Below, piece by piece: positions 2,256 through 49,400 of a stretch of 64,000 nucleotides of DNA (position 1 is its first letter; each line of letters opens with the position of its first letter). The notes under the pieces are model-generated. The model had not been told where the DNA came from and ran no database searches. It saw only the letters and a program-made list of their open reading frames with translations. The position numbers were made by a program, and so were the translations under genes. The DNA comes from Gammaproteobacteria bacterium (lineage in GTDB: Bacteria; Pseudomonadota; Gammaproteobacteria; JAJFJF01). The stretch is from contig JAJFJF010000012.1 of assembly GCA_021774255.1 (NCBI GenBank), positions 30,259 through 94,258 on the forward strand, read 5' to 3'.

Positions 2256-2256
2256 T

Positions 2257-5795: not shown

Positions 5796-5816
5796 CCCCC
5801 TTCTCTCTATTAGGTG

Positions 5817-5840: not shown

Positions 5841-5926
5841 TACTGCCGTTAATCTTCACTCCCTATTTTTAACAGGTCTAAAATTATCTAGACGCATCTA
5901 TTCATTCTCAATAAAAGGAATTTATC

Positions 5927-18452: not shown

Positions 18453-18504
18453 GCCGGATAACACACGTTGATGTCGGTTGCCTGCCGCGCTCACATTAAA
18501 ACCC

Positions 18505-19128
18505 CTACGCAACAAAGGCTTCGACAGGCGCGAGACCTGTACGCACAATAATCGGCACATCACCTACCATATCAATCACCGTGGTTTCCTCAATGCCGCC
18601 AAACCCACCATCGATAATGAGGTCAACCTGCTTGTGTAAACGCTCATAAATGAGCTCAGGATCTTGCATCGGCAACTCATCGCCGCGCATGAGGCAGGTA
18701 CTGCTCATCAAGGGTTCTCCTAAGCTTTCCAATAACGCGAGCGTAATCGCGTTATCAGGCACTCTCAGGCCCACTGTTTTGCGCTTGGGGTGCTGCAAGC
18801 GCCGCGGTACTTCGCGCGTGGCTTTTAGCAAAAAGGTGTAAGGCGCCGGCGTAGAGGCTTTGATCAAACGATAATCTGTGTTGTTGACTTGGGCATAGGT
18901 CGCCAGCTCCGACAAGTCTCGGCAAATCAGCGTAAATAAATGCCCTTCATCCAGGTGGCGAATAGCGCGAATGCGATCAAGTGCGGCTTTATCTCCCACA
19001 TGGCAGCCAAAGGCATAGGTCGAATCGGTTGGGTAGACAATCACGCCACCCTGGCGCACCACCTCAGCAGCCTGGGTGATTAAACGTTTTTGAGGATTAT
19101 CTTGATGAATTACAAGGCGTTGCGTCAT
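18505..19128 (-). CDS. yciO: L-threonylcarbamoyladenylate synthase-like protein, YciO/TsaC (Sua5/YrdC) family
   Basis: The YrdC-domain sequence VIVYPTDSTYAFGCHVGDKAALDRIRAIR is present. The protein is 207 aa. It is next to trpS, as in many gammaproteobacteria. Confidence 0.8.
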   Translation of the reverse strand: MTQRLVIHQDNPQKRLITQAAEVVRQGGVIVYPTDSTYAFGCHVGDKAALDRIRAIRHLDEGHLFTLICRDLSELATYAQVNNTDYRLIKASTPAPYTFLLKATREVPRRLQHPKRKTVGLRVPDNAITLALLESLGEPLMSSTCLMRGDELPMQDPELIYERLHKQVDLIIDGGFGGIEETTVIDMVGDVPIIVRTGLAPVEAFVA

Positions 19129-19337
19129 GTTTCTTTTGTACTAAATCAATGTTAATAAACTAAAAAAATAAGGAAAACTCCGAACAAAGATCATACCTTA
19201 ACTAGGCATACTTATATAGCCCAGCTGCTTTGTCGGCTTAGTTCACCTGCAGGCCACCCTACCTCCAGAAAAAATATTTATGTCATAAATCAAACTCACT
19301 TGTGAGGCTTTTTTTATTTGTGGATCGGGCTTAAGCC

Positions 19338-22300
19338 TTAACGCCAGGCAAATGCCCACATTCCGCGCAGATCGCGCCACCCCTTGTGCAAAGCAGGTAA
19401 GTTATAAAGCAAACGAATCAACATCGCCAGGGTACTCAGCAGAGAAAATAGCAATCGTGCGAGAACAATAGCACTGAGTCCTTGCCGAGCCAGGTACGTT
19501 GCACCAATAGTAAATTGAGGTAAATCTTCTACAGCAACACAGAGCAGCTTAAGAAGTACCAGCTGTGTATCCGCATATTCCGTTCGGGTTCGCAGGCGCA
19601 CCAGATCAGGACCCAGCACGGGCATAAACAATAGCCAATAAGGTAAATCTCCTGCCCGACGAGGCAACCAAGTGCCGTACATCAATTTCAAAGAAAGCAA
19701 CCCAATTCCCAATGAGGCCAGCAAAAAGAATACAAGTGACACCAAAACCAAATCGTTTTGGTGATCTTCATCCATTGCTATGATCAGCGAGCCATCCAGA
19801 ACTTTATCAGCGATCCACCAGAAAAATCCCCAGGTAGCCATCACTTGGTAGCGCTGCAGCAGAAGCAACCAGGCTACTGGTAGACAATAAAACATTTGCG
19901 TCAACCAGCGGTGCTTCCATGTCAAAGTAGGCACCGTTAGGCGCGACCAATCTTGCTCATCGGGTGATAGCAGTTCATTACCCTCAAGCAGGACATCAGC
20001 AAGCACGCTTGAATGTTGTCGTACTGCTGCCTTGAGTGATCCCAGCGCGCGTTTATCGACTCGATTATAGCGGATATCGAGGTGCTGTAGTGTGGGAAAC
20101 GTCCCCAGCTGTTCAAATAAGCAGCGGATCCCCAGCCCCGTGATCTTGTTATGAGAAGCTTTCAGGTGCGTCACAGGGGTTGCTTGCAAAGCACGTAAGA
20201 GCCGTTCAAACGCGACGTCATCCAAACCCAACCCGCTGACATCTACTTCGCTTGGTCCATTTCTTCCCTGCTGCACAAGCAGCTGCAACAAGATCTCGAA
20301 GCTCAAACGCCAGCGATTAGATTTTGAATCGGCGGCCTGCATGAAGTGGTAGACGAGCATCCACCCGTTTTTTTCAATGAGTAGTTGGATAAGTCTCTTT
20401 CCTTTTCGTGTGCATATAAAAGGATTATCCCCTTTCCTGACTAACGCGATGACCTCGCTGGAACGATTACGTGTACCAGCACTTAACAGAGCAATACAAC
20501 CTTCTGGGGTAACCTGGTTTAGCTGTGGTGGATCTGGAAAAAACCACCAGCTTTCAAATAGCCCCACCTGCCCCTCTGTCAAACGCACAAAACTTTGAAG
20601 TCGCTTACTGCAAACCAGCTTAGCGGTGGGTTCAGCAGAAACGTCTACTCCCAAATGAGGCTTTAAATAAGCAGCGATCTGGGGATAGCGTTGCTGGCTG
20701 ATAGCATAAGCTGCACGACACAAAGCGGCCTTTTGCTCTCCCAATCTATTTTCTTCACAAAGAAATTGAACAACATCATAATGCCCCCCTTTTGCGGCCC
20801 ACTCGATAGCGGTGTCACCTTTCACTTTGCGCGTCGCCATACTTGCATCTTGCGTATAAAGCCAGCGCACTGCCGCCAAGTTGCCTATCTCCGCCATCCA
20901 GGCCAAACGATCAGGGCTTTCTAGTAAGCGCTTCAAGCGACGGGAAGCGCGCCAACGATGCAAGACCGTTTCTAACCACAAGCCTGTCGCCATTAGTGTT
21001 ACGGTCAAAATCCAGCGTGGCATCCATTTTTCATAAAACGTGGTGTCGCCTGGGCAAGGCCCTTCAGGAACAGTGGGCGCCTTATCTGGCACCAAATCAC
21101 AATGATAAGGGTAGCTCTTGCCGTGCGCTATGCACCAGATGGTCGGGTCCCAATCTTGGAAAGTTTCCCAGTGATACATTGCTGGCGTTTTTTTACCGTA
21201 GGCACGCAGGCCAAAACTGCCACTTTCTCCTGCTGGAAAGTCTTGCCCCGTTGCATTGATATCCCAGTAAGACGCTTCAAAAATGCCATCTGCTCTTGAT
21301 CCCACCAAGCCACCTTTGGCCTGGTTGGACTGCACACAACCGGCGGTGTAACTAAAACGAACATGATCATTGGCTCCCACACTATGACCGACTAGACCAC
21401 CGGCTTCATCTTTGCCTGTGACAGGCCCCAAAGAATAACAGTATTCAACCATACCGTCGTTTTCGCCAATCACCCCGCCTACTTGGCGGCCCGTGCCTTC
21501 GATAGCGCCTGTACCATAACAATGTGTGAGCACGCCTCCGGCAGTTTGCCGTCCAACCAAGCCAACATTGTCACGACCGGTGACACGACTGGTGGCATAG
21601 CTGCGATCAATGATGCCTGCATTCAGGCCAGCGAGCGCACCCACATCATCACCTTCACTGAGTAGCCGCCCAAAAGCAACGCTCTCAATAACATGTCCCT
21701 CAGCACGGTTATCCCCCACTAAACTTGCAGCACGATCGCCGCGAGCTGTTACCGTGTTATTAACCCAACAACGCAGGAAGATCCCCAGATTTTGGCCAGC
21801 AAGCCCACCCACAGCAACATTGCCTTCAACTTCGCTGTAGACTGCTAATGCTTCAGCCCGCCCCAGGTTGTTGCCAATGGCGCCGCCAACAATTCGAATA
21901 CCCGTCACGGGGCCGTAGGCGGTACTGTGGTAAACGTCTCCACTGCTTTCGCCTATCAATCCACCCGTGGCACTGTCATAGCCAATGACGGCGGCCCATG
22001 ATTGACTGGTGTTGAGCAACCCTTCTAGATGCCCTACCAAGCCACCGACACGATAACTTCCCGTCACGGTTCCAGCAGCAGTACTGTTTGTGATAACACC
22101 AATAATTTTGCTCTGCCCTACTAAACCACCAATGCTCTCACCCGGATCAGCGCCTATCACATCACTTTGCACATGAAGAGCTGTCAGTGTGCCGCCATTG
22201 TGACCAACAGCGCCCCCTACAAAAGCATGCCCTCTCACAATTCCCGAACTGATGCTGTCTGTGACCGTGCTATAGTAATCGTTAGATCCCACCAACCCAC

Positions 22301-23483: not shown

Positions 23484-23564
23484 CCTGCCTTGGCAAAATA
23501 CTCTCTCCTGATCAATGGCGTAACAAGCAAAGGTAAGATACAAACACGCCATTCAAACGCGAAC

Positions 23565-23600
23565 GCAATAAAAAAGCCAGCTCAAGCAATTGTTTTATAT
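23565..23600 (-). promoter_or_regulatory. conserved regulon promoter motif copy (minus strand; CTTACC-N7-GTTACGCCATTGATCAGGA variant)
   Basis: It has TTAC boxes 13 bp apart. It is ~80 bp upstream of the corrected start at 23483. It matches the core consensus at 14 of 22 positions. Confidence 0.4.
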
Positions 23601-23784
23601 GAAATTAATCCACCCTTCCCTTTGCTTGTCATAACGGTTGTATGCCCTAAAAAACAGAGCCGCCCTGCCCCTAGCATCGCTTTTTCAGGCAACTGTAACG
23701 ACGAGAAGTGCCTACAGAAAGAGTGGCGAGAAAATTTACCCACCCGTGTTACGCTACTAGAAAGGAAAGCGTATTAAAAAAGAA

Positions 23785-26700
23785 ATGGCTAACAACCGTG
23801 TGCTTCTTTTTTTATTGACACTATCTGCAGCAGTTTTAGCCCAAGAAGAAATAGAGAGCTGCGAGGCGTTACAGGCAGTTGCCGACAACCTTTCTGGCTC
23901 CTTTATTCAAACCCGTCACATTAGCTGCGTAGGCAGCGAAGACTGGAATGGAGGAGCCGGGTTTAGGCCCATTGGCACACTAGCCACCCCTTTTTCGGGT
24001 GAATATGATGGGAGCGGGTACGAAATCAGCTACCTCACTAGTAACCGAACTGATGAAAATTATGTAGGATTATTTGGCTATCTGGCTACCACAGGGCTAA
24101 TAAAGGGCGTAAGTTTGAAATATGTCCGAGTCATTGGAAAAGAGCGAGTAGGCGGTTTAGTTGGCCAAAATAGAGGGGCTGTTTTCGATAGCACAGTGCT
24201 TGGAAATATAACCGGCATATTTATGGTGGCTGGGGTGGCAGGTACTAATCTCGGTACGCTGACCAACATCCGTGCCCAAATTATTATAACGGCCCTCCCC
24301 CCTGGCGAACGTGTTGGCGGCTTGGTGGGGGAAAATACCAACACAGAAGGCGCAACAGGTATCGTGACAAATAGCAGTGCTTTCGGGACGGTCACTGGAA
24401 ACTACTTGGTTGGCGGTGCAGCAGGAAATAATGATGGCACGCTCATAGCGATCCATACCCAAACTCACGTGATTGCAGTTGATCCTGGGGAGTACATTGC
24501 CGGCTTAGCAGGACTCAATATGGGGCTCATCGCTGACAGCAGTGCTTCCGGAACAGTCGTCGGTACCCAGCTCGTCGGCGGAGTGGCAGGTGCCAACTTT
24601 GGCACACTGATTGCCACCTCCCAAGCCAACATCACTGGCAGCAGCAAAGCTACCGGAGGCCTGGTAGGCCAAAATGAAGGCCTCGTAATAGATAGCGCAG
24701 CTTTTGGGGCAGTAACTGGCACAACGCATGTAGGCGGAATTGCAGGCATCAACGGCAACACCATAACGGATACCTTCAGCCATTGCACTGTCATAGGAAT
24801 CGAACCGGGGTGGTACGTTGGCGGTTTAGCCGGCTATAACAGTGGCAGCACCATGAACAGTGCTGTCTATGGCGAAGTAATAGGCACCGCTTATGTAGGT
24901 GGCGCGCTAGGCGTGAATTTCGGCACCTTAACTGCCGTCGATGTTGAAGCCAGCGTGAGTGGCCTCGACCCCGCTGAATTCATCGGTGGTGTAGTAGGCG
25001 AAAATGGCGGCACAGGTATTATCTCAAACGCTACCTTTTTTGGGGAGGTAGTAGGCAGTGCCCAAATTGGCGGCGCCTTGGGCAACAACCTGGGCATAGC
25101 GACTCTCCTCTATTCTCAAGGTGACGTGACCGGCATGACTTCAAGCAAATCTGTCGGCGGATTGTGTGGACGCAATGAACGATTGATCTCCCATAGCACA
25201 GCGAATACCGCAGTCTTCAGTGCGGGCCCCAATGCAGGTGGTTTTGTGGGTGAGAACACTTATACTGGCGAATTACTCAACGCCACTGCTTTGGGAAACG
25301 TTATCAGCACAGCAGACAGTGCCGGCGGCCTAGCGGGGGCTAACCATGGTAAAATTTTTGATAGCCTAGCCCTGGGAAATGTCTCTGCCTATTATCTGGC
25401 GGGAGGACTCATTGGCGTCAACACGATCACCGCGCTTGTTAATCGAAGTGCTTGCTTGGGCGTTGTCTCGGGAACAGAAAGCCAAATCGGAGGATTGATC
25501 GGTCTTCACGAAGGTGTCCTTGAGAACAGCTATGCTTTAGGGTGTGCTTCAGGCACCCATACCGTAGGGGCTTTGCTTGGAAAAAATGAAGGCACACTCA
25601 AACATTGCTACGCTGTTGGTTGTGTGACGGCAGAAAACAACACCGGTGGGCTGGTGGGTGGAACACTGTCATCCCATGATGTTTTCTCTTGTTTCTGGAA
25701 TAAGCACAGCACCGGGCAACGCCACCCTGCTGGCGGGCGCTACGACGCCTCCCTACAAACGCTTGGTCTTTCAAACGAAGAGATCCGTCAGGCTGAGACT
25801 TTTATCGAGTGGGATCCTGGTACTTGGCACATGATTGAAGGCCAGCTTCCTTATCTTCCCTCACTCACACTTGCCCCACAACCTCAGCTACCAACCGAGC
25901 ATTGCCCGATGGCGCCACTGCCCTTTTCTGCCTGGATGAGTGAACTTGCATCCCTGGGTACAGTTTGGATCAGCATGATGCTGCTTTGGCTGATGTGGCG
26001 ACGCTGGCGTACCTTACAACAAAGCTTCCTTGTATGGCAGGATAGATGGCTGTGGCGGGTAGCGACAAAAGGCGATCAACACCTGCTTCACTATCTTCTG
26101 ACTGATAAACCCAATATACCTACCGAAGATGAGCAAGAGATCTCTGCCATTGTTTTCGCCGCACGTATGGGTTTTCTTGAGATGGTGGACACCCTCATTA
26201 AAAAATGGAAGATTCAAGCAACAGAGGAACGTTACACGGAAGCATTGTCCACAGCCCAATATTATGGATACCAAGAGATCATCACACTTTTAAAGCCAAC
26301 AGATGCCGGCTCACTTGTCCCCCCCTCTCCTGTCGAGATGAGAGAAGGAGGCGGCAACCTACGCCGTCGAGCGCAACCACGTAGCGGCGCTGGGGAAGCA
26401 CTATTGGGCACCCATCAACAACACACGCAAGAAGAAGAGCTGTACGAAGCCGCTTCCAACGGACACTACTTTACAACATGGTGGCTACTGCTTAACGAAG
26501 CCATATGTAATCGTGTCTTAGAACAATATCAGACAACACCACTTTGGGCAGCTATCAAAAAGGGGCACTTAAATACAGCACTTTTGCTCGTGGCATATGG
26601 TGCCTTTTTACCAGTACAAAATTCACGTAAGCAAACCGTGGCGCACCTCTTGATAAGCCAGCACCGACGGATCTGGGCCAAGCGTCTGCGCGATGCCAGT

Positions 26701-27678
26701 CCAGAAGCGGCTTTGTGGCCGTTTTGTTTCCGGTTATACCGACAAGCCTTGAGAGATAATAGTGATGCTTTAACGTCAGCCGATCTCAGTGGCTACGGTT
26801 TGGGCGACGAAGCGCTTGCCGATTTAGCGGATGCCATGAAGGGGAATTCTCACCTAACGCACTTGTTAGCCAGCAACAACCATTTCACCGACCGAGGCCT
26901 CCAATACCTGGCACAAGTATTGACTGAGCATGCCGCCATCCCGCTCACTGAAGTGGACGTACGTCATACTTTGGTGACGCAGCGGGGCATTGACGCTTTG
27001 CGGCGGGCCAAGTGTGATCTGACGATCCAATGGGAGGGTACCCGAGCAGATACTACCGTCACTGAAAACCGTTGGGCGCACTGGAGTGAAGCATGGCAGC
27101 AGCGATGCAGTTTGAAGCTCGCCCTCTCCTGGCAACGTTATACATTAGGCCCCCTGTTGGGATGGTGGCTTATCATGGCCCATCGCTTTATCAGCGGCTT
27201 TCTCATTCAAGATTTGGATGAACAGCACCAAGAAGCGCTCATGACAGCAGGAAGCATCTTGTTTATCATTAGCTACGCTAATAGCCTGCTTGCCTTACGC
27301 TACGTCTACGGTGCATGGTGCCCTCGCCAACTACTCGATATCCTAGGCTTCTTGGCGTTGTTGCCTTTACTGTCGCCTGAGCTACTTATCCTTATCTGGC
27401 AAATTAACTACCCGGATGTTGCGCTGACGCTTTTTAGCAGTGCCCAACTCCTGCTTGAAGTCGCACAGGCAACTTTGTTTCTTTATGCCGGCACGTTAGA
27501 AGGGTTTTCAGCATTTATCCTTCTAAAGTTAAGCCTCACGCTTTTTTCGATACTCTGGCACCTGGCCGCTTGGCTTCACCAAGGCACGACTCTCATTCCT
27601 CAATTTCAAGGGCTATGGGAACGCCCCGGAGATTTTTTCACACCAGAGGATCCCGGAGAGGAGATGCGCCAAGTCTAA
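23785..27678 (+). CDS. giant GLUG-like repeat protein with TM segment, ankyrin repeats, RNI-type LRR and conserved C-terminal membrane domain
   Basis: The 1297-aa protein has a signal peptide and GLUG repeats. A TM segment follows (VWISMMLLWLMW). The ANK region reads LWAAIKKGHLNTALLLVAYGA. The LRR region reads LSGYGLGDEALADLADAMKGNSHLTHLLASNNHFTDRGLQYLAQVL. The C-terminal region is multi-helix and hydrophobic. Confidence 0.8.
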   Translation: MANNRVLLFLLTLSAAVLAQEEIESCEALQAVADNLSGSFIQTRHISCVGSEDWNGGAGFRPIGTLATPFSGEYDGSGYEISYLTSNRTDENYVGLFGYLATTGLIKGVSLKYVRVIGKERVGGLVGQNRGAVFDSTVLGNITGIFMVAGVAGTNLGTLTNIRAQIIITALPPGERVGGLVGENTNTEGATGIVTNSSAFGTVTGNYLVGGAAGNNDGTLIAIHTQTHVIAVDPGEYIAGLAGLNMGLIADSSASGTVVGTQLVGGVAGANFGTLIATSQANITGSSKATGGLVGQNEGLVIDSAAFGAVTGTTHVGGIAGINGNTITDTFSHCTVIGIEPGWYVGGLAGYNSGSTMNSAVYGEVIGTAYVGGALGVNFGTLTAVDVEASVSGLDPAEFIGGVVGENGGTGIISNATFFGEVVGSAQIGGALGNNLGIATLLYSQGDVTGMTSSKSVGGLCGRNERLISHSTANTAVFSAGPNAGGFVGENTYTGELLNATALGNVISTADSAGGLAGANHGKIFDSLALGNVSAYYLAGGLIGVNTITALVNRSACLGVVSGTESQIGGLIGLHEGVLENSYALGCASGTHTVGALLGKNEGTLKHCYAVGCVTAENNTGGLVGGTLSSHDVFSCFWNKHSTGQRHPAGGRYDASLQTLGLSNEEIRQAETFIEWDPGTWHMIEGQLPYLPSLTLAPQPQLPTEHCPMAPLPFSAWMSELASLGTVWISMMLLWLMWRRWRTLQQSFLVWQDRWLWRVATKGDQHLLHYLLTDKPNIPTEDEQEISAIVFAARMGFLEMVDTLIKKWKIQATEERYTEALSTAQYYGYQEIITLLKPTDAGSLVPPSPVEMREGGGNLRRRAQPRSGAGEALLGTHQQHTQEEELYEAASNGHYFTTWWLLLNEAICNRVLEQYQTTPLWAAIKKGHLNTALLLVAYGAFLPVQNSRKQTVAHLLISQHRRIWAKRLRDASPEAALWPFCFRLYRQALRDNSDALTSADLSGYGLGDEALADLADAMKGNSHLTHLLASNNHFTDRGLQYLAQVLTEHAAIPLTEVDVRHTLVTQRGIDALRRAKCDLTIQWEGTRADTTVTENRWAHWSEAWQQRCSLKLALSWQRYTLGPLLGWWLIMAHRFISGFLIQDLDEQHQEALMTAGSILFIISYANSLLALRYVYGAWCPRQLLDILGFLALLPLLSPELLILIWQINYPDVALTLFSSAQLLLEVAQATLFLYAGTLEGFSAFILLKLSLTLFSILWHLAAWLHQGTTLIPQFQGLWERPGDFFTPEDPGEEMRQV

Positions 27679-27857
27679 GATAGGAAGATGATGACTTGTA
27701 AAAGGCATGACAAAAAAACAGCAATATATTTGCCAGAAAAATAACTTATTTTGACCGACACGAAGAAACAAGATATGATTTTATAAGCTTACATGATCAC
27801 AATGTTCGTTCGGGCAACCGGATAGCAACCCACAAAATAATACTAAAAGGCAAAACC

Positions 27858-28130
27858 ATGATGACACCTGAAGCACGCAAAGCAACCCTGACTGAACGTT
27901 TAACAGCAACACTCCGCCCTACTCAATTAAATATCACAGACGATAGCGCAGCACACGCAGGCCACCCAGGTGCACAAAGTGGTGCAGGCCATTTTACGGT
28001 GCACGTTGCCTCAGAAGCCTTTGTCGGCAAGTCTCTTATTGAACAACACCGTTTAGTCTATCAAGCCGTCGGTGATTTAATCCCCGCAGAAATTCATGCG
28101 CTGCGCATTGATGCTTCCCTGCCCGCTTAA
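27858..28130 (+). CDS. BolA-family protein
   Basis: The 90-aa protein carries a BolA-like HFTVHVASEAFVGKSLIEQHRLV motif. Confidence 0.75.
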   Translation: MMTPEARKATLTERLTATLRPTQLNITDDSAAHAGHPGAQSGAGHFTVHVASEAFVGKSLIEQHRLVYQAVGDLIPAEIHALRIDASLPA

Positions 28131-38944: not shown

Positions 38945-39439
38945 TCAGGAAGCGCTGCTAAGCAACTCATCCATCCACACTAAAGCAGCCAATACAGACT
39001 GTTCACGAATGTGCTCACGATCGCCTTTCAAATTTAACTTTTTAGTTTGAACTGTTCCAGCAGGCAGCTTCACCGCGAGCCAAACAAGCCCCACTGGCTT
39101 CTCGGTATTATCGGCATCAGGGCCCGCAATACCGCTCACCGCAACACTCACTTGGGCATGGCTATGTTTCAGCGCGCCTTCGGCCATGGCCACCACCACC
39201 TCTTCGCTCACCGCACCGTGCTTTTCAATGACTGCAGCAGGCACACCCAGCATTTCTTGCTTAGCAAGATTGCTGTACGTCACAAAACCTCGTTCAAACC
39301 AATTAGAACTCCCCGGCACTGCGGTGATCGCTTGCGATACCCACCCGCCTGTACAGGACTCGGCTGTTGCAAGCATCCAGCCCTTTTCTTTAAGACGCTC
39401 CCCGAGTTTTTTGGCGAGTAAATATTCTTCTTTTTCCAT
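38945..39439 (-). CDS. pncC: CinA C-terminal domain protein / NMN amidohydrolase PncC
   Basis: The start was set at MEKEEYLLAKKLGERLKEKGWMLATAESCTGGWVSQAIT, which carries the hallmark ATAESCTGG. With this start the gene does not overlap the upstream ATPase gene. Confidence 0.8.
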   Translation of the reverse strand: MEKEEYLLAKKLGERLKEKGWMLATAESCTGGWVSQAITAVPGSSNWFERGFVTYSNLAKQEMLGVPAAVIEKHGAVSEEVVVAMAEGALKHSHAQVSVAVSGIAGPDADNTEKPVGLVWLAVKLPAGTVQTKKLNLKGDREHIREQSVLAALVWMDELLSSAS

Positions 39440-39464
39440 GTGCGAAAGCTCTTTTATTAAGGCG

Positions 39465-40670
39465 CTAATAAATAAATCCAAAATAAGGCAGAGGGATTGT
39501 TTTATGGCTAGGCAGTAAGATGTCATCTTTTACTAAAAATGCATTTTTCTGCCCTTTAATTTGTGTAGTTGTTTTATTTTTCCCGCCAATCTCGAAAACA
39601 GCATCATCGATCTGGTAATCGCCTGCTTTGCTATGAAGGATCTCAAGGCCCGCCCCCTTAATAGACTGCACAAAAAAGAGCTCTCTAATAGTACCCAAAC
39701 CATCATCCTTGAGTGCATTTGATTGCAATGCATAGTGCAAGTTCGTATTACTTAAGAAAGCTTTCTCTGGTTTTCTCAAACCAACGTTCCCTGTTTCAGC
39801 TGGATACAGAACTTCAACCAACCCGGTTTCATGTAAAATATTTAAGTAATTAGCGGCTGTTTTATCGTCAATGCCCATGTTTTTGCTGATGTTATAGGTG
39901 CTAATTTTGCCCGGTGGTATTGTTGACAAAAATCTTAAGATTTTGCTGAAATAGCGCAAATTAGTTGTTTTTAACTGATAAAAATTTGCAATGTCCTCAT
40001 AAATGGTTTTTTCTACAATACTTAATATTTTCTCATAGTACGACAACGCATCTTCCATAAAAAATGGATAGAAACCTTGTTGTAGATATTGCTTGAAATG
40101 CCCCAACAACTTAGGGAAATTTGAAATATTCTCTCGTGGCATTTTGCCCAAAAGTAATTGAGAAAAATCAACTATTGGGAAATTTTCAGCTTGTGAAAAA
40201 TTGAGATACTCCCTAAATGATAAGCCCGGCAAACGATATAACTTGGCTCGTCGTGATAAATCATAACTACCCTTAATGAGATCCAGGCTAGAACTACCTG
40301 AAAACACTATTTTTAGCGAAGGAAAAGCATCATATAAGTTCTTTAGCTCCTGGTTCCAGTTTTTGTAACGATGGATCTCATCAATAAAAAATAACTCAAT
40401 CCCTTCCGTAAGCACTAAATCTTCAACAAATTGATAAATAGTGACATCATTAAAATAAATATGATCAGCAGAAAAGTAGAAAACTTTACTCCTATCGTCA
40501 CATTTATTTTTTATATACTGCAGTAGCAATGTCGTTTTTCCCACACCTCGTGGACCAACAAGGCCAGTCAGACGATTATTGATATTAAAACTCGAATAGA
40601 GGTAGCGGTAAAAATCACTATCCACTTCATCTAGTAAGCGTTCAAATATCAGTCCTAAAGATTTCTGCAC
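39465..40670 (-). CDS. AAA+ ATPase with DUF4143-like C-terminal domain (second paralog; GTG start)
   Basis: The Walker A motif is GPRGVGKTTL and the Walker B motif is FFIDEIH. The architecture matches 1062..2255. The AT-rich codon usage suggests foreign origin. Confidence 0.7.
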   Translation of the reverse strand: MQKSLGLIFERLLDEVDSDFYRYLYSSFNINNRLTGLVGPRGVGKTTLLLQYIKNKCDDRSKVFYFSADHIYFNDVTIYQFVEDLVLTEGIELFFIDEIHRYKNWNQELKNLYDAFPSLKIVFSGSSSLDLIKGSYDLSRRAKLYRLPGLSFREYLNFSQAENFPIVDFSQLLLGKMPRENISNFPKLLGHFKQYLQQGFYPFFMEDALSYYEKILSIVEKTIYEDIANFYQLKTTNLRYFSKILRFLSTIPPGKISTYNISKNMGIDDKTAANYLNILHETGLVEVLYPAETGNVGLRKPEKAFLSNTNLHYALQSNALKDDGLGTIRELFFVQSIKGAGLEILHSKAGDYQIDDAVFEIGGKNKTTTQIKGQKNAFLVKDDILLPSHKTIPLPYFGFIY

Positions 40671-40932: not shown

Positions 40933-43335
40933 ATGACAAGCGCGACCGCAAATATCGAACAACATACCCCCATGATGCAGCAATATCTGCGCATAAAGGC
41001 AGAGCATCCAGACAAATTGCTGTTTTATCGCATGGGCGATTTCTACGAGTTTTTCTTTGAAGACGCAAAGCGTGCTGTCAAATTGCTCGACATCACCCTC
41101 ACCCATCGTGGCCAATCAGGGGGTGAGCCTATCCCCATGGCCGGCGTGCCCTATCATGCGGTAGAAGGCTATTTGGCCAAGCTTATTCGGCTCGGCGAAT
41201 CCATGGCGATTTGCGAACAAGTGGGCGATCCCGCGCTGGCTAAGGGCCCTGTCGAACGCAAAGTTGTGCGCATTGTCACACCCGGCACCGTCACCGATGA
41301 AGCTTTATTAGAAGAACGACAAGAAAATTTACTCGTGGCCATTAGCGAAGCAAAAGGTCATTTTGGTGTGGCCAGCCTCGACATGGGCAGTGGTCGCTTC
41401 CATGTATCAGAAGTGGATAATCTGGAAAGTGTCAGCAGTGAACTGGCACGTTTACAGCCAGCAGAATGTTTGTTGAATGAAGCCTCTGAGGCCCCCATTG
41501 AAATAACCGCCAGCACACAACGCCGCCCGGCACACACCTTTGACATAGATCATGCCACCCGCTTGCTGACCACACAATTTGGCACACAAGATTTATCGGG
41601 TTTTGGTTGTGAGCATTTGCCACTTGGGATCAGCGCTGCCGGTGCCTTATTGCATTATGCGCAAGAAACACAGCGTACCGCCCTGCCTCATATTCGTGGT
41701 TTACGGGTACAATCTTCTGATGACAGTGTCACGCTTGATGCCACCACGCTGCGTAATTTAGAATTACTCACGAATCTTTCTGGCGGCAAAGAGCACACGC
41801 TGGCTTGGGTGCTCGATCATACCGCGACCCCGATGGGCAGTCGCTTGCTGCGGCGCTGGATTAAACGGCCGTTAAAAGATCACAACACGCTGACTCGCCG
41901 ACACCAAGCGATCCATACATTACTTTCAAAACAGACTTATGAAAATATCACGCCCTTGCTTAAAAGCATCGGCGATATCGAGCGCATTTTAGCCCGCATT
42001 GCCTTGCGCAGCGCCCGCCCACGCGATTTGGTCGGTTTGCGGCAAGCCTTAAGCACCCTGCCTGCACTGCAAAAAATACTAGGCACGTTAGACAATCCTT
42101 TTCTGCAGAAACTGAGTACCCAAATTGGTGAATTTCCCGAGTTATTTGCTCTGCTTGCCCGTGCAATTGAAGCGTCCCCTGCGCAATTGATCCGCGATGG
42201 CGGCGTGATTGCCGATGGGTTTGATGCCACACTCGATGAACTGCGCCAAATCAGTGAACATGCCGGGCAATATTTAATTGATTTTGAGGCCACCGAGCGT
42301 GAGCGCAGCGGCTTGCCCACATTGAAAGTCGGCTTTAACCGTGTGCATGGTTATTATATTGAAATCAGCAAAGCGCAAGCCGGCCAAGCACCTGAGCATT
42401 ACACACGTCGTCAAACGCTCAAAAATGCCGAGCGCTATATTACGCCGGAACTCAAAACCTTTGAAGACAAAGTACTCAGCAGCCGCGAACGCGCGTTAGC
42501 GCGAGAAAAAGCCCTCTATGAAAGCTTATTAGACGATTTACTAAACGTATTACCTGAACTGCAACAATGCGCACATAGCCTGGCGGTGCTGGATGTTTTA
42601 ACAAACCTGGCTGAACGTGCCGACATACTTCATTTTACTTGCCCTACTTTTACCGAGCAGCCTGGCATTCATATCGAGGAAGGTCGCCACCCCGTCATCG
42701 AGCAGGTACAGTCCGCGCCCTTTATTCCAAACGATGTGATACTCAACGAGGCTGATCGCATGCTGATCATCACCGGCCCCAATATGGGCGGTAAATCAAC
42801 GTATATGCGGCAAACCGCGTTGATCACTCTGCTGGCCTATATGGGCAGCTTTGTGCCTGCAAAAGTCGCCCAGTTTGGGCCGATTGATCGGATTTTTACG
42901 CGCGTGGGCGCCGCGGATGATTTAGCCAGCGGCCGCTCGACGTTTATGGTGGAGATGACAGAAACCGCCAACATTCTGCTTAATGCCACGGCACAGAGTT
43001 TGGTGTTATTAGATGAAGTTGGGCGTGGTACCAGCACCTACGATGGCTTGGCGCTTGCCTGGGCGGTCGTCACGCATCTTGCGGAAGAAACAAAAGCCTT
43101 TACGCTCTTTGCTACCCATTATTTTGAACTCACCAGCCTACCTGAATCGATTAAAAACATCAGCAATGTGCATCTTGATGCTGTCGAGCACAATGATGAT
43201 ATTGTCTTCCTGCACAAGGTTAATCCTGGCCCCGCCAGCCGCAGCTATGGCCTACAAGTTGCCAAACGTGCGGGGATTCCTGAAGCTATTATTCAGCAGG
43301 CAAAAGAAAAGTTAAATCAACTAGAACAGCATTAA
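40933..43335 (+). CDS. mutS: DNA mismatch repair protein MutS
   Basis: The 800-aa protein has a mismatch-binding N-terminus ([30 protein letters not shown]). The Walker A motif is GPNMGGKST. The C-terminus is the standard one. Confidence 0.95.
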
Positions 43336-43499: not shown

Positions 43500-46400
43500 C
43501 TAAAGCGTCGACATTTCAATATCACCCGGCAACGTGCCTGCTCTGGGTTTATCAGCTAACGCTTGCTTCCCAAAGCATCTTCCTTTTAACTGCCATAATT
43601 GCTGGCGCATCGTTGGCAAATCATAAAACAATAACTTGCTCAGAAAAAAGAGGGATGCGGTAAAAGCAACAACGACCTTAATCAACACAAAAGTATTGCT
43701 CCCCTTGCGAGTCAAAAACAATACCCCAATTGTAAATTGCGGCACATCTTCCAGGGAGAAGTTAGCGATTTTCATTTTGGCAAAACGTTGGTCGATGTAT
43801 TCAACACCCCACTCCAAGCGAACCCATTCTGGGCTTAAAATAGGCAAGGTAAGTAACCAGTAAGGACATTCGGATAACGACTTCGGATACCAACGACCAC
43901 GCACAGTCCGCATACCCCACAAACCAATTCCATACGATGCAAATAAAAACAGGGTCGAATAGAGGGCTAGCTGAGCTTCATCATTAGCCAGCAATTCACG
44001 GATCAAAAAGGCGTCTGAGATCCTATCGGCCATCTCCAGCATAAAACCAAATACAGTGACAAGTTGATAGCGCTGCAGGCGAAGTTGAATATGCTCAAGC
44101 TGTGCACCAAACATGTTCAGCAACGAACAAGAGGGCGCGTTCTGAAGCAGTTCTTCATTTGCGTTGCCCAACTGACGTTGCGACAAATACTGGTTCAGTT
44201 GGTTCCAGTAAACATCATTTTGAGGCAAGAGCTCATTATTAGCGAGTTCAACTATCCGCAAGACCGTTTGCCTTTGCAAGGCCCGCATCAGCAAGCGCAC
44301 GCTAGCAACATCAAGCAAATTGTCACTCAAATCCAACTTGGTTAATTGGGCAGGCAAACCAGGCCCTTCGAGCCAACCACGCAAACCCACCACGCTCAGA
44401 CTGTTGCGCGCCAAATTGATTTCAGTTACCACGGTATTGTTAGAAAGTGCTTGTGCTAGCTTTTGAAGCTGTACATCCGTGAGATTTTGTCCGCTCAAAT
44501 CAAGGTGTGTGAACTGCGGTGCATTCTCTTCAATGGCCTGCAAGAACAAGTCAAAACTCGCAGGCCAAACAGCGTAATAAGGGCTCGCTCGTACAAGCAA
44601 CTGTGCATCTACACGCTTGCCTTGCATGATAGCCATATCAATGGCCGTGTAGCCTTTGGGTGAACGCACAAACAGATCTGCACCGTCGCCAACAAATTTT
44701 TGGGCCTCGTAAAAATCACCAAGACAAACAGCCAGCATCGGTGGCGTAAGGCCAGAACAGTTGACTAGATTTATCTCAGTGTGGTCTTTTGCTGCCACAA
44801 GATCATGCTCTGATAACAAACTCAGTGATAAACCCGCTTTCAGTTCTTCATCAATTTGCTGCTGATACTGTTGCTCAATGGCCTCACTGTTTGGAATATA
44901 TTGATTGACGCCCTTGTGACCATTGTTGATTGCTGCTTTTAACGCTACTTCAAATGCGAACAAGGAGTCTTGCACAGACATCTTGGAAACAAGGTACGCC
45001 ACGACCTCCAGGTGCCCACCTTGCGCAGCCCACCATAAAGGCGTGTGGCCTTCAGCATCTTCTGCCATGACAGAAGCGCCCTTCTCTTCAATCTGCCACT
45101 TGACGAGCGAGAGGCTGCCGATTTGCGCGGCAGCATGCAATGGATGAAAGACGGCTTGCTTCTGACGACGACGCCACATGAGCCAGGCAAATCCCAGCGC
45201 GGCTGCACCCGCCGTCACACCAATATAGCTATTGAGCTGCGTCTGGTACAAAGCGGGTGGGATAGGACAAGCATCAACAGGTTTGATCGGTATCATGCTT
45301 GTCTGAAATTGCAAGTAAGGATAGCTATCGCCTTTGGCAATTTGCCATATCTGCTCAAAATCCCAGCCTTGATAAGTGTTGGGCTGGTACATTGCTTGGG
45401 TCTGTCTGCGATAGCGGCGGCGATAGCTGTAATACTGATCGTTCACACCGGGCAAAGACTGCCCCGTCGTCGAGACATCCCAGTAAGACTGGCTCACCAG
45501 CGCAGTATCCAAAAATGAGCCTGTCAGAGCGCCTACACTATTACCTTGCACACAACCTGAAACATAACAATTGCTAAAGCGTCCGCTGTTTTGGCCAATC
45601 AATCCACCGACATTTTGCTCACCTGTTGTGCTCGTGACGGCATAGCTATCAATAAGTTCTCCGCTGTGCACACCAATCAGGCCGCCCGTTTGGCGTACGC
45701 CGATCACGCGTGACTGGGCAAAACACTGAGTGATCTCTCCTAGGTTATGCCCAACCAGTCCACCGGCCGTTTGTGCTGCTGCCACTTCGCCCAGCGCATA
45801 ACTGCTCAAGATATCACCACTATTTCTACCCACTAATCCGCCGGCGGTGTCTTGTGCTGTCACAGAACTGTTACTATGGCTAAATATTAACGTGCCTGAA
45901 TGGTCCGCAATTAAGCCACCCGCTTCTTCAAGAGCCGTGACGTCTGCTTTGCTGTGACAAGACGATACCTCACCTTGGTTCCGAGCAATGAGGCCCGCCA
46001 CTGTGAAATTGCCATTCACCACCGCACTTGCTGAACAATCTGTTACTGTGCCTGTGTTTTCGGCGATGAGGCCTGCAACCGTATCGATACCGTCAACCTG
46101 ACCTGTAAAGTGACTATTGCTCACCTCACCCTGGTTAACACCGAGCAGGCCTGCGCCGATAGCCACCGTCAGACTGACGCTACCGGTCACCTGGCAATGA
46201 GAGACACTTCCTTGATGATAGCCAACCAATCCACCAATGATTTCTTGACCGTGAATATTCACTTCCTCAAGAATAACGTTACGGATCTCCGCCGTGGCTG
46301 CGGTGTAACCAAAAAGACCCAAGCGCGTCTTGTCGGGCTGGTTCATGTAGAGAGAACGAATGCGATAGCCCTGCCCATCAAAAACGCCTGAAAAAGGTTC

Positions 46401-49400
46401 AAAGGTATCGGCATCTTGGTACCAGCCCAAGGGTAAAAAACCTTTCCCATCATTCCAATTTTCTGTCTCCATACAATCAATATCTTGTGAGAGGTAAGCA
46501 GTCGCATTGGGGCAAACGCTTTGTAAGCTGAGACAGTCAGTCACATTAACGACACTTTCAGTCGCTTCAATGGGTGCCAGACGACGCAGCTGGGGATAAC
46601 GTTGGCATCCCAGCCACCACGTATGGATAAAGTCCCAGGTTGCATAGTTAGCTTGCCATTGCATCAGCTGAGTAGAGCGCCCCTGACCACCTGCACTTGC
46701 TGTTTGACCAGAAATATCGACATCCCAGTAGCTATGCGTTGTGGTTGCGCCAGTACTGCTAAACCCAACCAAGCCGCCCAAGTTTTCACTACCTTGAACA
46801 GGGCTTGCTGCGTAACAGGCAATGATTTGGTTTTGGTTCCAGCCCACTAAACCACCCAGCAGGTTCACACCTTGCACATTGACTGAGCTTGCACTATTTC
46901 TAAGCACACCTTCTTGCCAGCCAATCAGGCCGCCTGCAATCGCGTCTGTGGCCGTTACCTGTCCTGTCACATGTGTGTAAGCCACCCTGCCGTTATTCCA
47001 GCCCACTAGGGCACCTGTATAACGCCCACCGTTAACATTCACATTTATGAGAGAAACATTACCGATGACTGTCGTCTGTGCGGTATAGCCAAACAAGCCA
47101 ATGTAGTCTTCATCAGGACGATTAATGGTCAAACCGCTGATTGCGTAACCTTGCCCATCAAAATAACCAGCAAATGGACCGGTTAATGAAGCGTCTTGGA
47201 ACCAACCCAAGGGAAGAAAACCCTTGCCGTTATTCCAATTAGCCGTATCACTACAGTCAATGTCTTGCGTGAGATAAACGCTTACGTCAGCATCAAGGCA
47301 AACTTCCCCCAGCGCCTCACAAGTAGACACCCAGAAAACGTTAGTATTGTTGTCAGGCGCATTGCTCCATACTTGAAGCTGTGGGTAGTTTTGACACGGG
47401 AAACGCCAAACAGTGGCGCTGTCCCATGCCTCATAGTTATTTTGCGCACGCATCACCTGCGATATTCTACCGACACCGCCTGCACTAGTGGTTTGTGCTG
47501 ACGTTTGAATATCCCAGTAAGCATCTTGTACAAAACCGCTGCCCTGGCCAACAAGGCCACCTGCATGCGTGTTTGCCGCAACGTTACCTATCGCGTAGCT
47601 TGCAGAGACGATGCCATCATTCAGCCCCACTAAGCCACCCGCGATATGGTCTGCGCTCACAGGTCCTGTCGCATAAGTATTTTCTAAAATAGTGAGATGG
47701 TGACCCATCAGGCCACCTACTGTCGAATTACCTGATACCGCGCCCGTGGCAAAACTTTGCGTCACGGTCACCCTATTTTTGCCAACAAGCCCACCTACTG
47801 AGTAATTACCTGTTACGTCGCCCGCCGCAAAGCAGCGCTCAAGCGCTATCTCAAATTCATCAAGTTCATAGTCATGAGCACCTATTAGACCACCTACAAA
47901 ATTTTGGCCACTCACGGCACCTAAGGCATAGCAGTCTGTCACGCTGCCGATGTTAAAACCGAGCAACCCGCCAAAATAACGACCACCTGCGCTGATAGCA
48001 CTGACAGCTCCAGTAGCATGAAGATGACGGATACTGACTTTTTCATTAGCACCTATTAGGCCACCTACATACTGTTTACCAAAAACATTACCCTGTGCTG
48101 TGGTATTAATGAGTATGCCGTTATTCCAACCGATCAAACCACCCACATAGCTATCACCTCTTACATCGCCACTAGCCGTCACATTCGTCAAGGAGCCTTG
48201 TCTATTTTCGCCCAAGAAACCACCTACGTAATGGCCTGAGCTTTCCACGTTACCGCTGGCATAGACGTTCCTAAAAACGACATTAGTGCCCATGTTGGAA
48301 CCCAGTAGGCCGCCCACGTAGTTAGCCGAACCCGAGAAGTTACCCGTAGTGTAAATATTGTCGAAAACAACACCATCACCACTGTTGAAGCCTAGCAGAC
48401 CACCAATGTAGTTAGCCGAACCCGAGAGGTTACCCGTAGTATAAATATTGTCGAAAACAACGCTATCAGCACTGTTGAAACCCAGTAGGCCACCAACGTA
48501 ATTAGTCGAACCTGACACGTCAGCGCTAGCATAGATATTACTAAAAATAAAACCATCAATGTTATTAGAGCCGAGCAAACCGCCAACAGCACTTGAGCCC
48601 ATCACACTACCTGTAACACTAACGTTCTCAAAAGTTCCAGTGTTAAAGCCTAACAGACCACCAACATGATCGCCTAAGGCCTCCACGCTGGCAGAAACAT
48701 AGGCATTGCTGAGAAAGCCCGTGTTATAGCCCAGCAAACCAGCAACGTAGTTGCCTGAACTTACCACGCTGCCGCTGGAATAGGCGTTAGTCAGAAAACC
48801 GGAATTGTACCCTAACAGACCACCAACGTAGTCAGCTGAGCCTATCACGCAAGCTGTAGCAGTGACGTTATTGAGAGTGCCAGAGTTGCTGCCTACTAGG
48901 CCACCGATGCGTTCTGAGCCTGCAATATTGCCACTCACATAAACGTTGCTAAGGGTGCCACCGTAATTGTAGCCCGCCAGGCCGCCAACGTATCTGCCTG
49001 AAGCCGTCACATTGCCACTAACAGTGACGTTGTTGATGGGGGCCAGGTTATTATAACCGACCAGACCACCAATGTAGTCGCCTGAGCCCGTTACGTTACT
49101 CCTAACATAGACATTACTGATAGTGCCGGAGCTCTTGCCGACCAGACTACCCACATATTCATTACCTGATACACTTCCGTCTAGTAAAGTGACAGCATCT
49201 ACTTGCGCCAAAGCGCCGATACTGACAAATAATCCCAGATAAGATATTGTTGTGCGATCAATAACTAGCCCTGAAATGCTATAGCCCTGCCCCAAAAAAG
49301 CGCCAGTGATAGCAAGCCCTGTGCCAGGTAAAAACCCCGCACCACCGTTCCAGTTCGCCGTATCGACACAATCAATATCCTGGCCAAGGATAATAGTGCC

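What the first reader, a model, noticed from the sequence alone, without database searches (positions are those of the whole stretch)
43600..44400. Conserved C-terminal multi-helix domain (YWLL(T/F)(L/M)P(I/V)L(S/G)P(E/D)) shared by all four giants - candidate novel membrane/translocation module
Downstream of the LRR the four giants share a ~200-aa hydrophobic domain with 3-4 predicted helices. It carries an invariant aromatic/proline signature (PYWLLTLPILSPEWVRLEW in 43500, PYWLLTLPIISPEWSRLEW in 51983, PYWLLFMPVLGPDLVRL in 19338, and LLPLLSPELLILIW in 23785). It is preceded by a region rich in ED.HQ. I do not recognise this domain. Placed after cytoplasmic-type ANK/LRR modules, it could be a second membrane anchor or an export domain. 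That gives a bitopic 'outside GLUG - TM - inside ANK/LRR - membrane C-term' architecture.
Basis: inference. Interest (0 to 1): 0.55.

Follow-up and report, generated by a model that had tools for sequence, protein, structure and literature searches.

The report
Bacterial half-copy of XKR scramblase fold
The conserved C-terminal membrane domain of four giant bacterial surface-type proteins is a very rare, single-repeat relative of the animal XKR (XK-related) lipid-scramblase fold; this fold has not, as far as I could find, been described in bacteria, and the domain offers a natural "half-XKR" for testing how these proteins move lipids.

Summary
All four giants end in a homologous ~160-aa hydrophobic domain (pairwise BLASTP E 4e-8 to 3e-37). 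Pfam and NCBIfam do not recognise it in these four proteins.

It is extremely rare. An exhaustive HMM search of 1.84 billion representative proteins found only 19 members: the four here and 15 others.

Sequence tests point to the N-terminal repeat (ND) of XKR:
- sub-threshold but collinear Pfam PF09815 hits;
- hhalign P 0.006 against ND, 0.27 against CD;
- the family HMM scores real XKRs at a median of 9 bits, reversed ones at 1 bit or less.

Giants A and C keep counterparts of XKR8 residues needed for scrambling (D26, D30, K/R134, E141, plus P144 and Q145). B and D have lost most of them. The intact and degenerate types are encoded head-to-head here and in two other contigs, and one homologue carries two tandem copies.

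Best reading: a single-repeat XKR-like membrane module that pairs up. Any action on lipids is inferred. I found no support for an export function.

The parts
43599..44084 (-). Giant A: XKR-ND-like core domain (aa 2544-2705), intact 'alpha' type
44013..44027 (-). Giant A TM1 motif D-R-I-S-D (DxxxD). It aligns with XKR8 D26/D30.
   Evidence: hhalign alignment. Residue table. XKR8 mutagenesis in PMC8500837.
43809..43865 (-). It is the re-entrant helical hairpin between TM2 and TM3 (counterpart of XKR IH1).
   Evidence: AF2 helices 70-82 and 85-92. The two prolines are conserved in at least 90% of members.
43734..43751 (-). Giant A TM3 motif E-D-V-P-Q-F. It aligns with XKR8 E141-T-A-P144-Q145-L.
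   Evidence: the family HMM hits XKRs exactly over this TM3-TM4 stretch.
43503..43598 (-). Giant A cytoplasmic tail with a terminal ..IEMSTL. An 'E-M-x-x-hydrophobic' ending recurs in roughly half of the family.
59948..60430 (+). Giant B: same domain, degenerate 'beta' type (ERIAT instead of DxxxD; ESMLPY instead of EDxPQF)
19380..19865 (-). Giant C: same domain, 'alpha' type (DKVLD; EDLPQF)
27124..27603 (+). Giant D: same domain, 'beta' type (HRFIS; LE-VAQA)
45174..45227 (-). Giant A single stop-transfer TM (YIGVTAGAAALGFAWLMW, followed by RRRQK). It lies between the GLUG ectodomain and the ANK/LRR region.
44229..45146 (-). Giant A cytoplasmic ANK repeats plus RNI-type LRR, linking the single TM to the XKR-like domain
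   Evidence: Pfam Ank_2/Ank. LRR read directly from the sequence.
51714..51982 (.). Divergent intergenic region of the head-to-head A/B pair (35% GC)
23553..23784 (.). Divergent intergenic region of the head-to-head C/D pair

Best explanation
The C-terminal domain is a free-standing, single-repeat relative of the N-terminal repeat (ND) of the eukaryotic XK-related (XKR/CED-8) lipid-scramblase fold.

Its layout is N-in, TM1, TM2, a re-entrant hairpin inserted from the cytoplasmic side (PYWLL..LP.LSPE), TM3, TM4, C-in. TM1 and TM3 carry buried acidic residues (D[RK]xxD and K...EDxPQF). By alignment these correspond to the XKR8/XKR4 'charged stairway' (D26, D30, K/R134, E141, with P144 and Q145).

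The domain probably works as a dimer that imitates the two-repeat XKR unit. An intact 'alpha' copy (giants A and C) would pair with a degenerate 'beta' copy (B and D) encoded head-to-head next to it. Its most likely activity is local thinning or perturbation of the bilayer and movement or binding of phospholipid head groups. It would do this in the membrane that holds the giant GLUG ectodomain on one side and the ANK/LRR scaffold on the other.

Shown: conservation, rarity, predicted fold, which XKR half it matches, residue correspondences, gene pairing, one tandem fusion.
Inferred: common ancestry rather than convergence, dimerisation, any lipid activity, and which membrane is involved.
For: Conservation and rarity:
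- The four domains are clearly homologous.
- Only 19 representatives exist among 1.84e9 proteins.

Fold:
- AF2 on the 19-sequence alignment gives pLDDT 89.4 and pTM 0.82, with helices 2-33, 37-62, 70-82, 85-92, 99-127 and 131-160.
- Foldseek puts XKR8 first (TM 0.63-0.65, prob 1.00) and XKR9 next (TM 0.58-0.59, prob 0.94-0.97). All other hits have TM of 0.40 or less.
- A first, weaker model also ranked XKR9 first.

Sequence:
- Pfam PF09815 (XK-related) hits P0009 (E 7.7e-4; residues 9-84 to profile 2-83 of 337) and P0012 (E 0.013; residues 104-167 to profile 116-179). Both are collinear with the ND half.
- hhalign gives P 0.006 against ND, 0.27 against CD, and 0.6-0.8 against reversed controls.
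- The family HMM scores 104 real XKRs at a median of 9.1 bits (maximum 13.8, per-sequence E 2e-6). The match always maps TM3-TM4 onto XKR8 residues ~127-187. Reversed XKRs score 1.0 bit or less.

Residues:
- D24 (XKR8 D30) in 14 of 19 members
- D/E/N20 (D26) in 16 of 19
- K/R105 (K/R134) in 17 of 19
- E112 (E141) in 16 of 19
- Q116 (Q145) in 16 of 19
In XKR8, D26, D30, K/R134, E137, E141 and R183 are required for scrambling, and all lie in ND helices (PMC8500837). In XKR4 the ND vestibule thins the membrane once ND disengages from CD (PMC12334663).

Topology: positive-inside counts fit N-in/C-in, and acidic residues sit only in TM1 and TM3.

Pairing:
- Head-to-head alpha/beta pairs occur in the window (A/B, C/D) and in L087 and L088.
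- Alpha and beta types share contigs in two other genomes.
- P0019 carries a second, degenerate copy in tandem.
Against: - No member reaches Pfam's XK-related threshold (best 19.0 bits against a cut-off of 24.8). The four window proteins get no Pfam hit at all.
- Foldseek E-values are only about 0.1. hhalign probabilities are low. Helical membrane bundles can converge.
- The profile found no XKR at E <= 0.001 in the exhaustive search.
- XKR8 E137 and R183 have no clear counterpart.
- The beta types resemble ND, not CD, so 'beta mimics CD' is not supported by sequence.
- Dimerisation and lipid activity were not tested.
- A Sec signal peptide and a 2,000-aa ectodomain place the protein in the bacterium's own inner membrane, where no need for an XKR-type scramblase is known.
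Confidence: 0.55

Rival explanations
1. The fold is XKR-like, but the domain is only a structural membrane anchor or oligomerisation module. It would hold the ANK/LRR region against the membrane and cluster the giants, and would have no lipid-moving activity.
For: - The domain always sits at the extreme C-terminus of large multidomain proteins.
- The beta types have lost the acidic motifs and are still retained.
- Several XKR family members themselves have no demonstrated scramblase activity (PMC8298096).
Against: - Buried acidic residues in TM1 and TM3 are conserved in 14-16 of 19 members, although they are costly in a membrane.
- They coincide with the XKR8 residues needed for scrambling.
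- A simple anchor would not need a conserved P-rich re-entrant hairpin.
Confidence: 0.25
2. This is a new, unrelated bacterial 4-TM family whose resemblance to XKR is convergent. The function would then have to be worked out from scratch.
For: - Every sequence signal is sub-threshold.
- Identity to XKRs is 12-16%.
- No XKR appeared in the exhaustive search.
- The domain covers only half of the XKR architecture.
Against: - Pfam, hhalign and the reverse HMM test all map collinearly to the same half. Reversed-sequence controls are clean.
- The motifs DxxxD in TM1 and E..PQ[LF] in TM3 coincide in register.
Confidence: 0.12
3. It is a cation-binding or small-solute-conducting module. The acidic cluster in TM1 and TM3 would bind Ca2+/Mg2+ or conduct ions, rather than moving lipids.
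For: [quoted passage not shown]
- A Ca2+ site at these residues has been proposed for XKR4 (cited in PMC12334663).
- The acidic residues are conserved here.
Against: - The XKR9 structure provided no evidence of bound cations at that cluster.
- No transporter or channel family ranks close to XKR in the fold searches.
Confidence: 0.06
4. One reading: a C-terminal export or translocation module, for example a secretion-system recognition domain.
For: - The position is C-terminal.
- A short tail motif '..E-M-x-x-hydrophobic' is conserved at the very end of roughly half of the members.
Against: - The proteins carry N-terminal Sec-type signal peptides and an internal stop-transfer TM.
- The domain is a hydrophobic 4-TM bundle with N-in/C-in topology, unlike the soluble C-terminal secretion signals I know of (background knowledge).
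- No secretion-related family matched in Pfam or NCBIfam.
Confidence: 0.02

Closest known systems
XK-related (XKR) family: XKR8, XKR9, XKR4, XK, C. elegans CED-8 (Pfam PF09815; PDB 7DCE/8XEJ, 7P14/7P16, 9BOJ)
   Same: - The fold of the N-terminal repeat (ND): four TM helices with a re-entrant hairpin between TM2 and TM3, N-in/C-in.
- Acidic DxxxD in TM1.
- Basic residue...E-x-x-P-Q-[LF] in TM3.
- Weak collinear sequence similarity to ND only.
   Different: - One repeat instead of two (ND+CD).
- Bacterial rather than metazoan; the Xkr4 paper describes the family as conserved 'from nematodes to humans' (PMC12334663).
- Below the Pfam threshold.
- Fused to giant GLUG-TM-ANK-LRR proteins.
- No counterpart of the CD repeat and no caspase-cleavable regulatory tail.
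- Counterparts of XKR8 E137 and R183 are unclear.
- Occurs as intact and degenerate paralogue pairs.
Half-size membrane proteins that dimerise to give the fold of an internally duplicated relative (for example SemiSWEET versus SWEET, EmrE-type small multidrug-resistance dimers); from general knowledge, not tested here
   Same: - A single repeat encoded on its own, where relatives have two fused repeats.
- Paired paralogous genes, and one natural tandem fusion (P0019), suggest assembly of two repeats.
   Different: - There is no evidence yet that this domain dimerises.
- The N-in/C-in even-TM topology implies a parallel dimer, like ND/CD, rather than an antiparallel one.
- Here the repeat is only the tail of 1,300-2,800-aa proteins.
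GLUG-repeat surface proteins / IgA1-protease-type Zmp N-terminal regions (Pfam PF07581, PF05342)
   Same: The N-terminal 700-2,100 aa of the giants are arrays of GLUG modules. Two small secreted GLUG-only proteins lie in the same window.
   Different: The GLUG models in Pfam do not cover or predict the TM-ANK-LRR-4TM C-terminal half. The finding's domain is not part of any GLUG model.

Membership tests
XK-related protein family (Pfam PF09815) | Score at or above Pfam's gathering threshold (24.8 bits) | tested here: not met
   The best member, P0009, scores 19.0 bits (E 7.7e-4) and P0012 scores 15.0 bits. The four window domains get no hit even at E <= 10.
XK-related protein family (Pfam PF09815) | ND-type repeat fold: 4 TM helices plus a helix or hairpin partly inserted from the cytoplasmic side | tested here: met
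XK-related protein family (Pfam PF09815) | Two structurally related repeats (ND + CD), 8 TM helices in one chain | tested here: not met
   Each window protein has a single repeat of ~160 aa followed by a 10-45 aa tail. Only the homologue P0019 has a weak second tandem copy (i-E 3e-4 to 1e-3).
XK-related protein family (Pfam PF09815) | Conserved charged 'stairway' in ND: TM1 DxxxD (XKR8 D26/D30) and TM3 E141 with P144/Q145, plus K/R134 | tested here: met
   Met for alpha types, including giants A and C (DRISD/DKVLD; K..EDxPQF). Not met for beta types, giants B and D. The equivalence rests on a weak profile alignment.
XK-related protein family (Pfam PF09815) | Phospholipid scrambling activity | not testable with these tools
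   Needs liposome or cell-based assays.
XK-related protein family (Pfam PF09815) | Statistically significant sequence homology in an unbiased database search | tested here: inconclusive
   The exhaustive search with a 4-sequence profile returned no XKR at E <= 0.001. Targeted tests are positive: hhalign P 0.006 against ND, and reverse HMM per-sequence E 2e-6 to 5e-5 with clean reversed controls.
   No such Pfam or NCBIfam match. The domain is an integral 4-TM bundle.

The most novel reading that the evidence does not exclude
These proteins carry a functional 'half-XKR'. An intact alpha repeat and a degenerate beta repeat, encoded head-to-head, would assemble into a two-repeat scramblase-like unit. 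This would be a prokaryotic, pre-fusion form of the XKR fold, or alternatively an ancient capture from a host by a host-associated gammaproteobacterium. The unit would scramble or thin membrane lipids, or dock a bridge-like lipid-transfer protein as XK docks VPS13A. That would extend XKR-type lipid scrambling to bacteria. Because the ND-like repeat would act without a fused CD, it would also give a minimal system for testing the ND-vestibule model of scrambling.
Probability: 0.2. Interest if true: 0.85.

Novelty: new variant of a known kind. Interest (0 to 1): 0.68.

Why it matters
XKR proteins expose phosphatidylserine on dying cells, and XK partners with VPS13A in McLeod syndrome/chorea-acanthocytosis. 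The family is described as conserved 'from nematodes to humans' (PMC12334663). Its scrambling mechanism is still debated: a hydrophilic path through ND helices, or membrane thinning at the ND vestibule.

A bacterial domain that corresponds to ND alone would be useful in three ways:
1. It would show that the repeat can exist as an independent unit. That bears on how the two-repeat fold arose.
2. It would provide a small protein, expressible in bacteria, for testing whether ND is sufficient for lipid scrambling.
3. It would point to an unsuspected lipid-handling element in a tiny, peculiar family of giant GLUG-ANK-LRR envelope proteins.

My literature searches found no bacterial XKR homologue. 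That is absence of evidence in the held library only.

Tried and rejected
Searches that found nothing or failed:
- The word-indexed homology search with A's domain found nothing. With the 19-sequence profile it found only P0015. That index appears to lack the relevant genomes.
- The search for related loci in genome contigs gave no relative with a single protein.
- My own degenerate pattern (LP..SP[ED]-N75-[ED]D..QF.[IV]) hit A and C in the window as intended. It returned 39 loci from genome contigs and 46 from metagenome contigs. None was a true relative by tblastn.
- The look-up of encoding contigs had no record of D, P0005 or P0006. Adjacency of alpha and beta genes on the 82,867-bp and 184,734-bp contigs could therefore not be checked.
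- The profile search of PDB sequences gave no hit at E <= 10.
- The afdb50 fold library was unavailable.

Ideas tested and dropped:
- 'Beta-type repeats mimic the XKR C-terminal repeat' is not supported. Beta profiles also match ND, not CD.
- 'P0015 is a stand-alone 231-aa version' is rejected. L089 shows a frameshifted or partial larger gene whose upstream frame continues the ANK region.
- Conservation of the hairpin between A and B through recent gene conversion is not supported. No inverted DNA repeat of 60 nt or more covers the C-terminal domains; the repeats are confined to the GLUG parts.
- A 20-bp promoter-region motif shared by L087 and L088 is absent from the window.

Not established:
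- The organism was not identified. Synteny only indicates a gammaproteobacterium, and a Legionellales-like lifestyle is a guess.
Full report
**What is in the window.**
Four very large ORFs lie in two head-to-head pairs:
- A, 43500-51713(-), 2737 aa, with B, 51983-60505(+), 2840 aa
- C, 19338-23552(-), 1404 aa, with D, 23785-27678(+), 1297 aa

All four have the same layout:
- an N-terminal signal peptide;
- arrays of GLUG modules (Pfam PF07581, E 1e-21 to 6e-92);
- one hydrophobic stop-transfer helix followed by basic residues;
- ankyrin repeats;
- a short RNI-type leucine-rich repeat;

The neighbours are ordinary gammaproteobacterial housekeeping genes: surE, an M23/LysM peptidase, mutS, cinA, recA, recX, alaS, aspartokinase, tRNA-Ser/Arg, scpAB, trpS and a Mip-type FKBP.

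**Checking the observation.**
The quoted strings are present. The C-terminal 200 aa of the four proteins match each other with BLASTP E-values of 4e-8 to 3e-37 at 28-38% identity (alignment).

The core is about 160 aa: A 43599-44084(-), B 59948-60430(+), C 19380-19865(-), D 27124-27603(+). Pfam at E <= 10 and NCBIfam give nothing for it in these four proteins.

Three details need correcting. The core is ~160 aa rather than ~200. It has four TM helices plus a hairpin rather than 3-4 helices. The acidic 'ED.HQ' stretch is the TM1-TM2 loop inside the domain, not a preceding region.

**How rare it is.**
An HMM of the four domains was scored against every one of 1.84 billion representative proteins. 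It found 19 proteins at E <= 0.001, all of them at E <= 1e-10. Four are the window's own proteins (P0001-P0004). Each of the 19 representatives sits in a 90%-identity cluster of one or two sequences, from NCBI assemblies or Logan read assemblies. Pattern scans of GTDB species genomes and JGI metagenomes added none.

In every member the domain is at, or in two cases near, the C-terminus:
- Most members share the GLUG-TM-ANK-LRR architecture.
- P0014 and P0018 have GLUG-TM followed directly by the domain.
- P0013 adds further TM helices after the domain.
- P0019 has no GLUG part. It has about 950 aa of ankyrin repeats, then LRR, then the domain.
- The apparent 231-aa 'stand-alone' P0015 is the tail of a frameshifted or partial larger gene.

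**Structure.**
With only four sequences, AlphaFold gave a mediocre model (pLDDT 69). Even so, its two best Foldseek hits in PDB were rat XKR9.

With the 19-sequence core alignment (A2) the model is confident: pLDDT 89.4 and pTM 0.82, with helices 2-33, 37-62, 70-82, 85-92, 99-127 and 131-160.

- Foldseek against PDB ranks human XKR8 first (7DCE/8XEJ, TM 0.63-0.65 on the query, prob 1.00). Rat XKR9 follows (TM 0.58-0.59, prob 0.94-0.97). Every other hit has TM of 0.40 or less and prob of 0.41 or less. The E-values are only about 0.1.

XKR proteins consist of two structurally related repeats, ND and CD. Each has four TM helices and a helix partly inserted from the inside (PMC8298096; PMC12334663). 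The domain here has exactly one such unit.

**Which half, and is there a sequence signal?**
Four tests bear on this.
1. Scanning all 19 members against Pfam gave XK-related (PF09815) for two of them. P0009 scores E 7.7e-4 (19 bits; residues 9-84 to profile 2-83 of 337). P0012 scores E 0.013 (residues 104-167 to profile 116-179). Both are below the 24.8-bit cut-off but collinear with the N-terminal half.
2. Profile-profile comparison with XKR8 orthologues aligned 141 columns, query 8-151 to XKR8 17-181 (P 0.029).
3. With XKR9 and XKR4 added and the family split in two, hhalign gave P 0.006 against ND, 0.27 against CD and 0.6-0.8 against reversed controls.
4. In the reverse direction, the bacterial HMM scored 104 real XKR sequences at a median of 9.1 bits (maximum 13.8, per-sequence E about 2e-6). 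It always mapped its TM3-TM4 onto XKR8 residues ~127-187. The same sequences reversed scored 1.0 bit or less.

These signals are too weak to appear in a database-wide search. This is consistent with the exhaustive search and the PDB sequence search returning no XKR. They are nonetheless specific, collinear and confined to ND.

**Residue correspondences.**
The alignment pairs the following:
- the TM1 motif D-[RK]-x-x-D with XKR8 D26 and D30;
- the TM3 motif K...E-D-x-P-Q-F with XKR8 K/R134, E141, P144 and Q145.

Conservation across the 19 members:

| Position (XKR8 counterpart) | Conserved in |
|---|---|
| [RK]21 (none identified) | 19 of 19 |
| D24 (D30) | 14 of 19 |
| D/E/N20 (D26) | 16 of 19 |
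| K/R105 (K/R134) | 17 of 19 |
| E112 (E141) | 16 of 19 |
| Q116 (Q145) | 16 of 19 |
| P115 (P144) | 9 of 19 |

In XKR8, alanine substitution of D26, D30, K134, E137, E141 or R183 markedly reduces scrambling, and all six lie in ND helices (PMC8500837). In XKR4 the same 'charged stairway' and the proline break in TM3 line a vestibule that thins the membrane when ND disengages from CD (PMC12334663). I found no clear counterparts of E137 and R183.

In the family here, acidic residues sit in TM1 (mean 2.05 per sequence) and TM3 (1.74) and are almost absent from TM2 and TM4. K+R counts favour an N-in/C-in topology, about 6.5 inside against 2.2 outside. This matches XKR ND and fits a cytoplasmic ANK/LRR region.

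**Two types, encoded in pairs.**
Fourteen members, including A and C, keep the DxxxD and EDxxQ[FW] motifs; I call these 'alpha'. Five members (B, D, P0006, P0010, P0017) have S/T in place of the second Asp and degraded TM3 motifs; I call these 'beta'.

- In the window each pair is one alpha plus one beta, head-to-head: A/B are the long class and C/D the short class.
- Two Logan contigs from one sample repeat this arrangement. On L087, P0017 (beta) is divergent from a C-like alpha gene. On L088, P0007 (alpha) is divergent from a D-like beta gene.
- Alpha and beta members share an 82,867-bp contig (P0005, P0010) and a 184,734-bp contig (P0012, P0013 with P0006).
- P0019 has a second, degenerate copy directly after the first: residues 1169-1313, HMM positions 9-147, i-E 3e-4 to 1e-3.

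Together these suggest that two repeats work together, as ND and CD do in XKR. The beta type is not CD-like by sequence.

**Most likely mechanism.**
I think the domain is a single-repeat XKR-ND-like membrane module, with about 0.8 confidence for the fold and probable homology. It probably dimerises, alpha with beta, and perturbs or translocates phospholipid head groups through its acidic TM1/TM3 face. My confidence in a lipid-related activity is about 0.35-0.4. Overall confidence in the statement as written is 0.55.

The rivals are listed with their evidence in the report sections:
- an inert anchor or oligomerisation module (0.25);
- a convergent new family (0.12);
- a cation-binding or conducting module (0.06);
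- an export signal (0.02).

It is unresolved which membrane is involved. The Sec signal and stop-transfer helix argue for the bacterium's own inner membrane. It is also unresolved why a giant GLUG ectodomain is coupled to this module.

**Comparison with what is known, and novelty.**
The domain works like, and probably descends from the same stock as, the ND repeat of XKR proteins. It fails membership of Pfam PF09815 on two defining points, the score threshold and the two-repeat architecture.

I found no report of bacterial XKR relatives in the searchable literature. I rate it a new variant of a known kind: bacterial, half-size, and in alpha/beta pairs fused to GLUG-ANK-LRR giants. It would interest the scramblase field if confirmed.

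Noticed in passing
window 2510-4027(-) and 5927-7465(+), with 4447-5034(+) and 5031-5795(+) between them: Two small (505 and 512 aa) signal-peptide proteins each consist of a single GLUG module, with no TM, ANK, LRR or C-terminal domain. They face away from each other around a LuxR/GerE-type regulator and an ORF with no family hit. This may be a regulated set of secreted GLUG proteins related to the giants' ectodomains.
   Followed up: partly
window 43500-60505: A and B share inverted DNA repeats of up to 622 nt at 78-86% identity. These lie within their GLUG regions only (for example 49057-49678 with 53886-54507), not in the C-terminal domains. Because the genes are divergent, the repeats are inverted and could mediate inversion or gene conversion.
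   Followed up: partly
window 43503-43598(-) and the last ~10 aa of B and D; homologues P0005, P0007, P0009, P0010, P0011, P0014, P0017: Roughly half of the family end in a short motif '..[E/Q/P]-M-x-x-hydrophobic' a few residues from the C-terminus, for example IEMSTL, KEMTEMI, EEMRQV, QEMRELHL, TEMKVV. Its function is unknown. XKR8 and XKR9 use a C-terminal tail as an inhibitory plug, but no similarity was tested.
   Followed up: no
L087 2863-3075 and L088 1760-1908: The divergent intergenic regions of the homologous alpha/beta pairs each carry two inverted copies of a ~20-bp element, GTAACAATTKRWGKTAAGTT, one towards each gene. It is a candidate shared operator or promoter. There is no match in the window with up to 3 mismatches.
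   Followed up: partly
window 40933-43335 to 60617-62674: The A/B pair (about 17 kb) sits between mutS and the surE / M23-LysM peptidase (nlpD-like) genes. From my memory of enterobacterial gene order, rpoS and a variable segment lie in that interval; no rpoS or pcm ORF was seen here. A VTT/DedA-type membrane protein gene (61341-61886) lies between surE and the peptidase.
   Followed up: no
window 1062-2255(-) and 39465-40670(-): There are two AAA_14 + DUF4143 ATPase genes. The second, as listed from a GTG start, overlaps the cinA ORF (38945-39526) by 62 nt, so its start or cinA's start is probably mis-set.
   Followed up: no
window 9167-10270(-): A DUF4172 + Fic/DOC-domain protein is encoded immediately downstream of murJ (7554-9170), overlapping it by 4 nt.
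   Followed up: no
L089 1-941: P0015, listed as a 231-aa protein, is the tail of a larger gene. The upstream frame continues the ankyrin region and is interrupted by a frameshift, due either to an assembly error or to a pseudogene.
   Followed up: yes
window 18001-28000 and 43500-60500: The giants are more GC-rich (0.48-0.55) than most of the rest of the window (0.37-0.51; lowest, 0.37-0.40, at 1-6000). This may simply reflect their Gly/Ala/Val-rich GLUG repeats rather than foreign origin.
   Followed up: no
window 43809-43865(-) versus B (PYWLLTLPIISPEWSRLEW): The hairpin motif is 17 of 19 identical between partners A and B, although their domains are only about 38% identical overall. The same holds for the P0005/P0010 pair. 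This could mark a partner contact or a shared constraint; it is not explained by a DNA repeat.
   Followed up: partly
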